A stretch of 64,000 nucleotides of DNA, taken from positions 32,027 through 96,026 of the forward strand of contig JBIKUX010000008.1 of assembly GCA_044347345.1 (NCBI GenBank), given 5' to 3'. Below the pieces are notes generated by a model. It saw nothing but the letters and a program-made list of their open reading frames with translations, searched no databases and had not been told where the DNA came from. How positions within the stretch are numbered: the stretch's first letter is position 1; every line of letters begins with the position of its first letter. The position numbers and the translations under genes were made by a program. Source of the DNA: Bdellovibrionota bacterium. Its GTDB lineage: Bacteria; Bdellovibrionota_C; UBA2361; JBIKUX01. This document shows, piece after piece, positions 38,306-39,176 of this stretch.

Positions 38306-38722
38306 ATGTTGTTTATGAAGCTATCTTGGTTAAACGTCGCTTTTAATCTATCTAAATTTAATCTAAAAAATAGCCTACCTTTTATTGGGATACAAAAAGA
38401 TAATTTACGATTACAATTTATTCTTACTTTAATTGGAATTACTCTACTAGCCTTGGGGCTTAACCATGAGGCTAGCGCGTACACGCCGGTAGCTAGGTAC
38501 AATGACGACCGTATAGCAGAATCCGTTGACATTATCCTTACCTATATCAATGGAACTTTCGGTGCCTTAGTTATGGTTTCAGCAGGTATTGCAGCTATAC
38601 TCAGCTCAGCATTTGGTCAGTACCGAGCAGCACTCGGATTACTTGTAGTAGCTGTGGGCTCTTTTATTTTAAGATCCCTAATTAGTACTTGGTTTAACGA
38701 TGAGAACTTACAATCTCCCTAG
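38306..38722 (+). CDS. T4SS pilin-like protein 1 (TraA/TrbC/VirB2-like)
   Basis: Long leader ending ASA, then an 80-aa mature part with two hydrophobic helices separated by FGQYR. Confidence 0.72.
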   Translation: MLFMKLSWLNVAFNLSKFNLKNSLPFIGIQKDNLRLQFILTLIGITLLALGLNHEASAYTPVARYNDDRIAESVDIILTYINGTFGALVMVSAGIAAILSSAFGQYRAALGLLVVAVGSFILRSLISTWFNDENLQSP

Positions 38723-39176
38723 ATTAAATAATAGGCAAAAATATATGAAGGAAATAACTATGATATATAAGGACTATAAATCAAAATATAGTACCATCTG
38801 CCAGCAAATATATTTGTTCAAAGAACAGCTCAAGAAATCTATATTAAATGCCTGTGCTAAAAACGTTCAAATTTATTTACTTTTACTCGGTTTAGTTCTT
38901 ATCACTGCAGGCCTTATAAACGGCGCAGAGGCTTACACCCCTCAGGCACGCTACAATGACGACCGGATAGCAGAATCCGTTGATATAATCCTAACCTACA
39001 TCAATGGAACTTTCGGTGCCTTAATTATGGTCTCGGCAGGAGTAGCTGCGATTCTAGCATCGGCGTTTGGACAATATAAAGCAGCACTCGGGTTACTTGT
39101 GGTAGCTGTGGGCTCTTTTATTATGCGATCGCTAATTAGTACTTGGTTTAATGACCAGTCTCTTCAGAGTCAATAA
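38700..39176 (+). CDS. T4SS pilin-like protein 2 (tandem paralog)
   Basis: Leader ends AEA; the mature 80 aa are 71/80 identical to pilin 1 by my alignment. Confidence 0.72.
   Translation: MRTYNLPRLNNRQKYMKEITMIYKDYKSKYSTICQQIYLFKEQLKKSILNACAKNVQIYLLLLGLVLITAGLINGAEAYTPQARYNDDRIAESVDIILTYINGTFGALIMVSAGVAAILASAFGQYKAALGLLVVAVGSFIMRSLISTWFNDQSLQSQ

What the first reader, a model, noticed from the sequence alone, without database searches (positions are those of the whole stretch)
38306..39176. Tandem pilin paralogs with conserved mature domains and divergent leaders
The mature regions (38480-38719 and 38934-39173) are 71/80 identical, with many third-position changes, while the leaders are barely alignable. 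This points to selection to keep both pilins. Pilin multiplication is known in host-adhesion T4SSs such as Bartonella Trw. No TraQ/TraX/TraF pilin-processing gene is recognisable in the window.
Basis: partly seen in the sequence, partly recalled or inferred. Interest (0 to 1): 0.62.

Follow-up and report, generated by a model that had tools for sequence, protein, structure and literature searches.

The report
Tandem VirB2-like pilins, chromosomal T4SS
Two adjacent genes encode nearly identical small membrane proteins that are distant relatives of conjugative-pilus subunits; they close a conserved, chromosome-borne secretion-machine operon shared by many uncultured freshwater Bdellovibrionota, so the duplication is real, old and selected, though the kind of thing is known.

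Summary
Two tandem + strand genes (38315-38722 and 38760-39176) have 80-aa mature parts that are 71/80 identical. They differ at 52/240 bases, 34 of them at third positions (dN 0.11, dS 1.1). Their ~55-aa leaders are only 27% identical.

They belong to an unannotated family of 633 clusters at 50% identity, found almost only in uncultured Bdellovibrionota MAGs. The family is a remote branch of TrbC/VirB2 pilins:
- sub-threshold PF04956 hits in 22 of 65 members;
- VirB2 as the only PDB sequence hit;
- hhalign E 1.3e-4.

The pilins also have the expected layout: a long leader, an AxA cleavage site, and two hydrophobic helices joined by a basic loop.

In about 40 relatives a pilin ends the same syntenic operon (positional TraL, then TraE-TraK-TraB-TraV-TraC, small envelope proteins, SH3, M23 peptidase). 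The operon sits among housekeeping genes, and no coupling protein, relaxase, VirB6 or VirB11 was seen. Lake metatranscriptomes carry the operon and all of pilin 2. The 5' end of pilin 1 was not assembled, but a low-depth DNA run has the same gap.

Extra copies recur in at least 17 of 64 MAGs, mostly with conserved mature domains. That is unlike the diversifying Bartonella Trw pilins. Pilus formation and the machine's function are inferred, not shown.

The parts
38315..38722 (+). Pilin paralogue 1 (135 aa). Leader 38315-38479 (55 aa, ends EASA). Predicted mature 80 aa at 38480-38719.
   Evidence: ORF and sequence. Family membership. Weak VirB2 hit in NCBIfam, E 0.028. Hydrophobic segments at 30-51, 80-102 and 104-127. 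Orthologue P0002 is 89% identical over its full length.
38760..39176 (+). Pilin paralogue 2 (138 aa). Leader 38760-38933 (58 aa, ends GAEA). Predicted mature 80 aa at 38934-39173.
   Evidence: NCBIfam VirB2 E 0.059. Fully covered by 100%-identical metatranscriptome contigs in 4 of 4 runs.
39221..39252 (+). 13-bp perfect stem-loop 45 nt after the stop of pilin 2. Probable 3' end or stabiliser of the operon transcript. It has no canonical U-tract.
   Evidence: RNA fold. RNA contigs from four runs end at 39236-39279, and coverage is essentially absent beyond 39662.
27073..27765 (+). First gene of the operon. A secreted or anchored protein with a low-complexity middle and a conserved C-terminal 90 aa. 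No known family.
27891..28313 (+). Small membrane protein in the position of TraL/VirB3. The assignment is by position only.
   Evidence: Conserved in 18 or more loci. No family hit. One TM-like segment.
28475..29134 (+). TraE-like protein (VirB8-class bitopic component).
   Evidence: The window protein is weak (TIGR02761 E 0.06). The orthologue in L014 passes the Pfam TraE cut-off (28.1 bits against 24.8).
29157..29990 (+). TraK-like protein (VirB9-class).
   Evidence: TraK_C E 0.009. TIGR02756 E 0.005. Both are below their cut-offs. Position and synteny.
30016..31191 (+). TraB/TrbI/VirB10-like protein.
   Evidence: PF03743, 46.5 bits against a cut-off of 35.
31145..31654 (+). TraV-like protein (VirB7-class).
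   Evidence: PF09676, 21.7 bits against a cut-off of 21. The TTG start at 31145 is from mechanical ORF listing and is uncertain.
31708..32295 (+). Conserved lipoprotein of unknown family (lipobox at residue 44).
32309..35023 (+). TraC/VirB4 ATPase, a divergent F-like type.
   Evidence: PF11130 and PF19044. The best NCBIfam model is TraC-F-type at 190 bits, below its 567 cut-off. It is 62-79% identical across the MAG loci but only 21-25% identical to the best plasmid TraC proteins.
35054..35812 (+). Two small envelope proteins (35054-35401, a lipoprotein, and 35444-35812) of unknown family.
35884..36408 (+). Membrane protein with a bacterial PH domain (bPH_2).
   Evidence: PF03703, 31 bits. Two TM-like regions.
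36522..37634 (+). Coiled-coil protein with a bacterial SH3 domain, a likely peptidoglycan binder.
   Evidence: PF08239 and PF23795. Conserved in 38 loci.
37552..38139 (+). M23 peptidoglycan endopeptidase immediately upstream of the pilins. Its role as wall-remodelling enzyme of the machine (VirB1 analogue) is inferred.
   Evidence: PF01551, 118 bits. Conserved in 34 loci.

Best explanation
The two genes encode paralogous prepilins of a divergent, so far unannotated branch of the TrbC/VirB2 pilin superfamily. Each has three parts:
- a ~55-aa leader with an h-region and an A-x-A site, probably cut by signal peptidase I before Tyr (inferred);
- a mature 80-aa helical hairpin with two hydrophobic helices;
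- a basic residue (R or K) in the inter-helix loop, aligned with VirB2 Arg91.

They are the last genes of a 12-kb chromosomal operon (27073-39176) with F-like gene order: positional TraL, TraE, TraK, TraB, TraV, TraC. The operon also encodes its own SH3 protein and M23 wall hydrolase. It is conserved in synteny across a clade of uncultured, mostly freshwater Bdellovibrionota and is transcribed in lakes.

The machine most likely extracts the mature pilin from the inner membrane and polymerises it, driven by TraC, into a short pilus or conduit through the TraB/K/V envelope core. This is inferred from T4SS biology and not shown here.

The duplication is old. Both copies are kept under strong purifying selection with almost the same mature sequence. 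The second copy therefore most likely serves dosage or differential expression and membrane insertion through its own ribosome-binding site and leader, not as a surface variant.

No coupling protein or relaxase accompanies the operon. It is more likely a contact, adhesion or uptake organelle than a conjugation system (inferred).
For: Sequence and selection: (71/80 aa, dN 0.106, dS 1.10). One search shows the same pattern in paralogue pairs of other MAGs (omega 0.04-0.10, leaders divergent).

Pilin homology:
- PF04956 TrbC/VirB2 is by far the commonest Pfam match in the family (22 of 65 members, best E 1.2e-4; the next family matches 6).
- The only PDB sequence hit of the family profile is VirB2 8exh, in register over both helices.
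- hhalign of the family against a VirB2 alignment gives E 1.3e-4 over 61 columns, starting at the cleavage site.
- NCBIfam VirB2 at E 0.03 and 0.06.
- The only tblastn hits in 72,556 plasmids (E 0.3-0.8) include two genes annotated as TrbC/VirB2 family.

Topology and model: (mature domain pLDDT 83.7; helices 10-25, 27-45 and 49-73). This fits the published description of VirB2, TraM and TraA as 64-74-aa proteins with two hydrophobic helices and a basic lumenal loop, where Arg91 is needed for the pilus (bioRxiv 10.1101/2022.04.28.489814).

Context: searches give the T4SS parts. Searches show synteny in about 40 loci. One search shows housekeeping neighbours such as ispG in relatives.

Expression. 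RNA contigs cover 27000-39280. Coverage is uneven across neighbouring genes, which argues against DNA carry-over.
Against: - Neither window protein reaches any Pfam or NCBIfam threshold. hhalign probability is only 54%.
- Foldseek against the PDB finds nothing significant (8exh ranked 16 at E 7.6 with the full-length model, and was not among the 50 matches listed, of 61 with E up to 10, with the mature model).
- No filament has been observed.
- The mature domain is far more conserved (50-90% identity across the clade) than is usual for surface-exposed pilins.
- No VirB6/TraG-like polytopic protein is in the operon, and no VirB11 was found.
- The 5' 130-160 nt of pilin 1 were not recovered in any RNA run. 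However, a low-depth DNA run has the same gap, so this says little either way.
Confidence: 0.7

Rival explanations
1. The proteins are VirB2-type components of the machine but do not form an extracellular pilus. They would build only an inner-membrane or periplasmic conduit, or act as a membrane platform, as in T4SSs for which no pilus has been seen.
For: The mature domain is extremely conserved across the clade, which is unusual for exposed pilins. The operon lacks the F-specific pilus-assembly genes TraW, U, N, F, H and G, and lacks VirB5 and VirB6.
Against: The pilin gene region (38461-39276) is assembled at the highest contig depth in the operon in three of four RNA runs, as expected for a polymer subunit. 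The basic loop residue needed for pilus assembly in VirB2 is conserved. Extra pilin copies are common.
Confidence: 0.15
2. The copies were multiplied to make variant surface pili for adhesion to different hosts or prey, as in Bartonella Trw.
For: Like Trw, the system is chromosomal, has tandem pilin copies, and has no coupling protein in the locus (PMC2883598). One relative, L072, has five tandem and strongly divergent copies with omega 0.36-0.7.
Against: In the window the mature domains differ at only 9 of 80 positions, all conservative, with omega about 0.1. Most other paralogue pairs behave the same way. Trw pilins diversify more than the rest of their system.
Confidence: 0.08
3. The similarity reflects a recent duplication or ongoing gene conversion, not selection on two separate genes.
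For: Each copy is the other's best match among the genomes sampled (68/76 against 59/76 or less). One relative, L060, carries two identical copies.
Against: dS is about 0.8-1.1, with 34 third-position differences spread along the gene, and the leaders are unalignable. Pilin 1 has its own orthologue, P0002, with the same leader. In the L027/L029/L032 clade, first copies match first copies and second match second across genomes.
Confidence: 0.04
4. They are small membrane proteins unrelated to pilins, for example holin-like or immunity proteins, that only happen to lie next to a T4SS-like operon.
For: There is no significant database hit for the window proteins themselves, and fold searches are non-specific.
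Against: Several independent weak signals all point to TrbC/VirB2 and to nothing else. The gene is linked to the operon in about 40 genomes and is co-transcribed with it.
Confidence: 0.03

Closest known systems
TrbC/VirB2 pilins (Pfam PF04956; A. tumefaciens VirB2, PDB 8EXH; RP4 TrbC; pKM101 TraM)
   Same: A long leader with an AxA site. A mature protein of about 70-80 aa with two hydrophobic helices. A G-x-F-G motif in helix 1 and a basic residue in the inter-helix loop aligned with VirB2 Arg91. Encoded together with a VirB4-family ATPase.
   Different: Below every curated threshold. About 25% identity to VirB2 over a 71-column Foldseek alignment. The loop is two residues longer (F-G-Q-Y-R). 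The gene sits at the end of an F-ordered operon, not at its start. It is chromosomal, confined to one clade and very conserved. No cyclase (TraF-type peptidase) is nearby.
F-type (MPF-F) T4SS core: traA-traL-traE-traK-traB-traV-traC
   Same: The gene order (positional TraL)-TraE-TraK-TraB-TraV-TraC is the same. The best NCBIfam match for the ATPase is F-type TraC.
   Different: There is no TraA-type pilin (PF05513). The pilin has moved to the 3' end. TraW, U, N, F, H and G, TraQ, TraX, TraD and the relaxase are not seen. TraC is only 21-25% identical to plasmid TraC proteins. SH3 and M23 proteins and a PH-domain protein have been added.
Bartonella Trw T4SS (tandem trwL pilin copies)
   Same: Chromosomal, with no coupling protein in the locus, and with the pilin gene multiplied in tandem.
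   Different: trwL copies diversify and are thought to give variant adhesive pili. Here the mature domains are kept nearly identical (omega about 0.1). Trw is a recent derivative of an IncW-type (R388) conjugation system, whereas this operon is remote from any plasmid system.
Helicobacter pylori ComB DNA-uptake T4SS, and the archaeal Ced/Ted import pili (comparison from general knowledge, not tested here)
   Same: A reduced T4SS gene set with a VirB2-like protein and a VirB4 ATPase but no coupling protein or relaxase, used for something other than conjugation.
   Different: No sequence relationship was tested. ComB has a VirB6 homologue, which is missing here. The role here is unknown.

Membership tests
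TrbC/VirB2 pilin superfamily (PF04956) | The sequence matches the family model at or above the curated threshold | tested here: not met
   The window proteins have no PF04956 hit even at E up to 1. NCBIfam VirB2 gives 14.4 and 13.4 bits against a cut-off of 103.
TrbC/VirB2 pilin superfamily (PF04956) | Remote homology shown through relatives or profile comparison | tested here: inconclusive
   22 of 65 family members hit PF04956 (best E 1.2e-4), against 6 or fewer for any other family. hhalign against a VirB2 alignment gives probability 54% and E 1.3e-4 over 61 columns. The only PDB sequence hit is 8exh VirB2 at E 1.3. The signals agree with one another but are weak.
TrbC/VirB2 pilin superfamily (PF04956) | Long leader with a signal-peptidase site, then two hydrophobic helices joined by a loop with a basic residue | tested here: met
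   Leaders of 55 and 58 aa ending ASA and AEA. Hydrophobic segments at 80-102 and 104-127. The loop reads FGQY(R/K)A. A53 and A55 are at least 90% conserved among close relatives; A55 and Y103 are at least 90% conserved across the wider family.
TrbC/VirB2 pilin superfamily (PF04956) | Pilin-like three-dimensional fold | tested here: inconclusive
   The AF2 model of the mature domain is a helical hairpin (pLDDT 83.7). Foldseek against the PDB gives no match with E below 1, and helical hairpins are non-specific.
TrbC/VirB2 pilin superfamily (PF04956) | Encoded with, and dependent on, a VirB4-family ATPase and envelope core | tested here: met
   Same operon as TraC, TraB, TraK, TraV and TraE in the window and in about 40 related loci. 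Dependence on them was not tested.
TrbC/VirB2 pilin superfamily (PF04956) | Polymerises into an extracellular pilus; processed or cyclised | not testable with these tools
   Needs filament purification, mass spectrometry and cryo-EM.
F-pilin TraA (PF05513) | Match to the TraA model, with TraQ and TraX maturation genes | tested here: not met
   No TraA hit. No TraQ or TraX in the window.
F-type (MPF-F) conjugative T4SS | Full set TraL, E, K, B, V, C, W, U, N, F, H, G plus T4CP and relaxase | tested here: not met
   Only TraE, K, B, V and C are recognisable, and TraL by position only. None of the others is in the operon or in the 64-kb window. The rest of the genome could not be searched.
Trw-like amplified, diversifying pilins | Tandem pilin copies | tested here: met
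   Two copies 37 nt apart. At least 17 of 64 MAGs have two or more copies.
Trw-like amplified, diversifying pilins | Copies diversify in the exposed mature part (raised dN/dS) | tested here: not met
   Omega about 0.10 in the window and 0.04-0.10 in most other pairs. The exception is L072.

The most novel reading that the evidence does not exclude
The pilins and their operon are a vertically inherited, T4SS-derived organelle of a whole clade of uncultured Bdellovibrionota. It would not be a mobile-element conjugation system. It would be a reduced machine (no coupling protein, relaxase, VirB6 or VirB11; its own SH3/M23 wall-cutting pair) with an ultra-conserved VirB2-like filament, used for prey or host contact, or for uptake of DNA or other material. 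It is expressed in lakes. That would be a new functional class of T4SS in predatory bacteria.
Probability: 0.35. Interest if true: 0.75.

Novelty: new variant of a known kind. Interest (0 to 1): 0.5.

Why it matters
Pilin duplication on its own is a modest finding. What gives it wider interest is what the pilins belong to.

- They define an unannotated protein family: 633 clusters at 50% identity, no Pfam model, all named "hypothetical".
- They mark a 12-kb T4SS-like operon that is syntenic, chromosomal and about 70% identical (TraC) across many uncultured Bdellovibrionota.
- That operon is only about 22% identical (TraC) to any plasmid system.
- It is transcribed in situ.

If it is a non-conjugative pilus machine, it would add a T4SS-derived organelle to the cell biology of a phylum known for predation. 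It would also supply a very conserved VirB2-type pilin for structural work.

In practice, a family model would let annotation pipelines name several hundred "hypothetical proteins".

Tried and rejected
1. Pfam and NCBIfam scans of the two window proteins gave nothing at threshold.
2. An AF2 model of the full-length prepilin was poor (pLDDT 64.5), and its Foldseek search of the PDB was meaningless.
3. A better model of the mature domain (pLDDT 83.7) still gave only non-specific helical-bundle matches, so fold search cannot decide this case.
4. I looked for a conserved partner gene next to orphan pilin copies. The 577-aa neighbour of P0007 is not shared by other loci.
5. The promoter and terminator consensus scan gave fewer promoter-like sites than in shuffled sequence and found no terminator at the operon end.
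6. Literature searches for a described T4SS or VirB2 in Bdellovibrionota found nothing relevant.
7. At first I read the missing RNA coverage of the pilin 1 5' end as possible non-expression. I dropped that reading because a low-depth DNA metagenome shows the same gap.
8. Recent duplication or gene conversion was rejected on dS and on the orthologues.

Full report
**1. What is in the sequence**

Two + strand ORFs lie head to tail at 38306-38722 and 38700-39176.
- The first in-frame ATG of each is probably not the start.
- ATG 38315 follows AAGGAG (38300-38305) by 9 nt. ATG 38760 follows AAGGA (38748-38752) by 7 nt.
- These starts give proteins of 135 and 138 aa, identical in length to database entries P0001 and P0004.
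- With these starts the genes are 37 nt apart.

- Codons 38480-38719 and 38934-39173 encode 80 residues, of which 71 are identical.
- 188 of 240 bases are identical. The 52 differences fall 12/6/34 over the three codon positions.
- 30 differing codons are synonymous and 9 are not.
- Nei-Gojobori gives dN 0.106 and dS 1.10.

The leaders are 17/62 identical. The similarity is confined to the hydrophobic core, and the polar N-terminal parts align no better than shuffled sequence.

Independent lake metagenome assemblies span both genes on single contigs of 22 and 73 kb without a difference, so the tandem arrangement is real.

**2. What the proteins look like**

Each protein has a polar N-terminus, an h-region and a small-x-small site (ASA or AEA) followed by Tyr. 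Then come two hydrophobic helices separated by the short loop F-G-Q-Y-(R/K)-A.

An AlphaFold model of the mature part, built on an 89-sequence alignment, is confident (pLDDT 83.7). It shows helices at 10-25, 27-45 and 49-73, forming a hairpin.

This matches the published description of VirB2 (74 aa), TraM (70 aa) and TraA (64 aa). Those are short proteins with two hydrophobic helices and a lumen-facing loop carrying Arg, Lys or His. Arg91 of VirB2 is needed for pilus formation (bioRxiv 10.1101/2022.04.28.489814).

**3. Homology**

The window proteins hit no Pfam family, and in NCBIfam they hit only VirB2, at E 0.03 and 0.06.

They do belong to a large family:
- 358 proteins in the word-indexed search, all "hypothetical" with no Pfam domain.
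- 633 cluster representatives at 50% identity with E up to 1e-3 in the exhaustive search, 408 of them at 1e-10 or better.

Five independent but weak signals tie this family to TrbC/VirB2 and to nothing else:
- (a) 22 of 65 diverse members give sub-threshold PF04956 hits (best 1.2e-4). The next commonest family has 6.
- (b) A profile search of all PDB sequences returns one chain, VirB2 of the T-pilus (8exh, E 1.3). It aligns in register over both helices, with the family's R/K on Arg91.
- (c) hhalign of the family alignment against 25 bona fide VirB2 proteins gives E 1.3e-4 and probability 54% over 61 columns, starting at the AxA site.
- (d) The NCBIfam VirB2 hits noted above.
- (e) The only tblastn matches in 72,556 plasmids (E 0.3-0.8) include two genes annotated as TrbC/VirB2 family.

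Foldseek cannot help. With either model the best matches have E above 1 and are generic helical bundles.

I therefore call the proteins remote TrbC/VirB2-superfamily pilins with moderate to good confidence. They are not members of the curated family.

**4. Context**

The pilins are the last genes of a + strand operon that starts at 27073. Its parts are:
- an unknown secreted protein and a small membrane protein in the TraL position;
- TraE (the orthologue in L014 passes the Pfam cut-off);
- TraK-like, TraB/TrbI (above cut-off), TraV (above cut-off) and a lipoprotein;
- TraC/VirB4, whose best model is F-type TraC;
- two small envelope proteins and a bPH-domain membrane protein;
- an SH3 coiled-coil protein and an M23 peptidase.

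The order L-E-K-B-V-C is that of the F plasmid, but the pilin is at the far end and is not TraA-like.

Nothing in the operon is polytopic like VirB6/TraG. The 64-kb window otherwise holds housekeeping genes (addAB-like, dapA, asd, hemB, pabAB and others). It has no coupling protein, relaxase, VirB11, TraQ, TraX or TraF.

**5. Relatives**

A scan of one genome per GTDB species found 72 real loci in 64 MAGs.
- Almost all are labelled Bdellovibrionota, Bdellovibrionales, Oligoflexia or "Deltaproteobacteria". One is labelled Dadabacteria, and none is cultured.
- About 40 loci show the same operon in the same order ending in a pilin. TraC is 62-79% identical among them.
- The best plasmid TraC proteins are only 21-25% identical.
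- Downstream genes in many relatives are housekeeping genes such as ispG.

The system thus looks vertically inherited and chromosomal, not part of a mobile element.

**6. Copy number**

At least 17 of 64 MAGs have two or more pilin genes: 13 with two, 2 with three, 1 with four and 1 with five. This is a lower bound, because the MAGs are fragmented.
- Some copies are tandem behind the operon (L027, L029, L032).
- Others are orphans among housekeeping genes.

In the L027/L029/L032 group, first copies match first copies and second match second across genomes, so that duplication predates their divergence. The window's two copies are each other's best match among these genomes, so its duplication is separate.

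Most of the paralogue pairs analysed repeat the window's pattern: a conserved core (omega 0.04-0.10 where dS is measurable), saturated dS and divergent leaders. Exceptions:
- L060 has two identical copies.
- L072 has five tandem, strongly divergent copies (omega 0.36-0.7).
- L070's two copies share only 35 of 66 core residues.

Some database proteins are true fusions of two pilin domains behind one leader.

**7. Expression**

Four small lake metatranscriptomes from one study contain 100%-identical contigs across 27000-39280.
- Coverage of neighbouring genes is very uneven. It is essentially absent over the convergent patatin-Omp85 gene and 17-29 over a metalloprotease gene. This argues for RNA and against DNA carry-over.
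- Single contigs run from inside pilin 1 (38447 or 38476) through pilin 2 to 39270-39279, just past a 13-bp stem-loop at 39221-39252.
- Pilin 2 is fully covered in all four runs. Its region is assembled at the highest contig depth in the operon in three of the four runs.
- The first 130-160 nt of pilin 1 are missing in all four runs and in the RNA index.
- A low-depth DNA metagenome has the same gap (38189-38498). The gap is therefore probably technical (low depth, or strain variation in the leader) and is not evidence of silence.

Transcription of pilin 2 is shown. Transcription of full-length pilin 1 is not.

**8. Interpretation**

Shown:
- two old paralogues under strong purifying selection;
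- pilin-like topology;
- linkage to a T4SS-like operon that is conserved across a clade;
- transcription in situ.

Inferred:
- leader cleavage by signal peptidase I before Tyr;
- extraction from the membrane and polymerisation by the TraC-driven machine;
- SH3 and M23 as the wall-remodelling module;
- a non-conjugative role (contact or adhesion, or uptake), because no coupling protein or relaxase accompanies the operon.

The mature parts are almost the same, and what differs is the cleaved leader and the translation signals. The second copy is therefore better explained by dosage or by differential expression and insertion than by surface variation.

The Bartonella Trw parallel holds for architecture: chromosomal, no coupling protein, tandem pilins. 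It does not hold for the mode of evolution, since trwL copies diversify (PMC2883598).

**9. Novelty and score**

The kind of thing is known: a VirB2-type pilin, duplicated. New points, as far as the searched literature shows, are these:
- the family is unannotated;
- its operon is an undescribed, reduced, F-ordered T4SS variant specific to uncultured Bdellovibrionota;
- its pilin is unusually conserved.

I rate it a new variant of a known kind, with interest 0.5.

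Noticed in passing
window 27073-38139: The whole 11-kb operon upstream of the pilins is a reduced T4SS-like system. It is conserved in synteny in about 40 Bdellovibrionota MAGs and lies among housekeeping genes. No T4CP, relaxase, VirB6 or VirB11 was seen. It seems more noteworthy than the pilin duplication itself.
   Followed up: partly
alignments A1 and A4 (family leaders); window 38315-38479 and 38760-38933: Most family members share a leader motif, G-A-x-L-x-A-P-S-x-x-Q-x-Q, just before the h-region. Both window copies have largely lost it and keep only the Q. A conserved motif in a cleaved leader hints at a recognition step, such as an insertion chaperone or a peptidase.
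   Followed up: no
L072 4710-6936: One uncultured Bdellovibrionales MAG has five tandem pilin-like genes that are strongly divergent (19-27 of 66 core residues identical, omega 0.36-0.7). This is a Trw-like diversifying array, unlike the rest of the family.
   Followed up: partly
proteins P0147 and P0165 (also P0175, P0209, P0227, P0230, P0254, P0260): P0147 and P0165, read in full, carry two complete pilin domains in one polypeptide behind a single leader, a fused di-pilin with four hydrophobic helices. The others listed each had two matched stretches in the search but were not read. P0226, which also had two matched stretches, shows only one pilin domain when read.
   Followed up: partly
window 45158-47005 (and its paralogue at 52088-53680, - strand): There are two reprolysin-like (M12B) secreted metalloproteases. 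The first is by far the most highly represented gene of this part of the window in the lake metatranscriptomes (contig depth about 6-29, against 0-5 for neighbours).
   Followed up: partly
window 39329-41539 (- strand): A patatin phospholipase fused to POTRA and an Omp85 barrel lies convergent to the pilins. It has essentially no RNA contigs in the four runs. Relatives carry a different, unannotated protein of about 677 aa at this position.
   Followed up: partly
window 16952-19219: A tyrosine integrase (- strand) and a KfrA_N-like protein sit in a stretch of higher G+C (46% against about 40%). No tRNA gene is present anywhere in the window. This is probably a small integrated element, separated from the T4SS-like operon by housekeeping genes.
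   Followed up: partly
window 21012-21569 (- strand) and 35884-36408: A second membrane protein with a bPH_2 domain, 14 kb upstream, clusters by BLAST with the operon's bPH protein. It may be a paralogue.
   Followed up: no
window 38203-38221: An inverted repeat, ATCGAC-N7-GTCGAT, lies in the 175-nt AT-rich gap between the M23 gene and pilin 1. It may be an operator or an RNA element. The same stretch is the one missing from RNA contigs and from low-depth DNA contigs.
   Followed up: no
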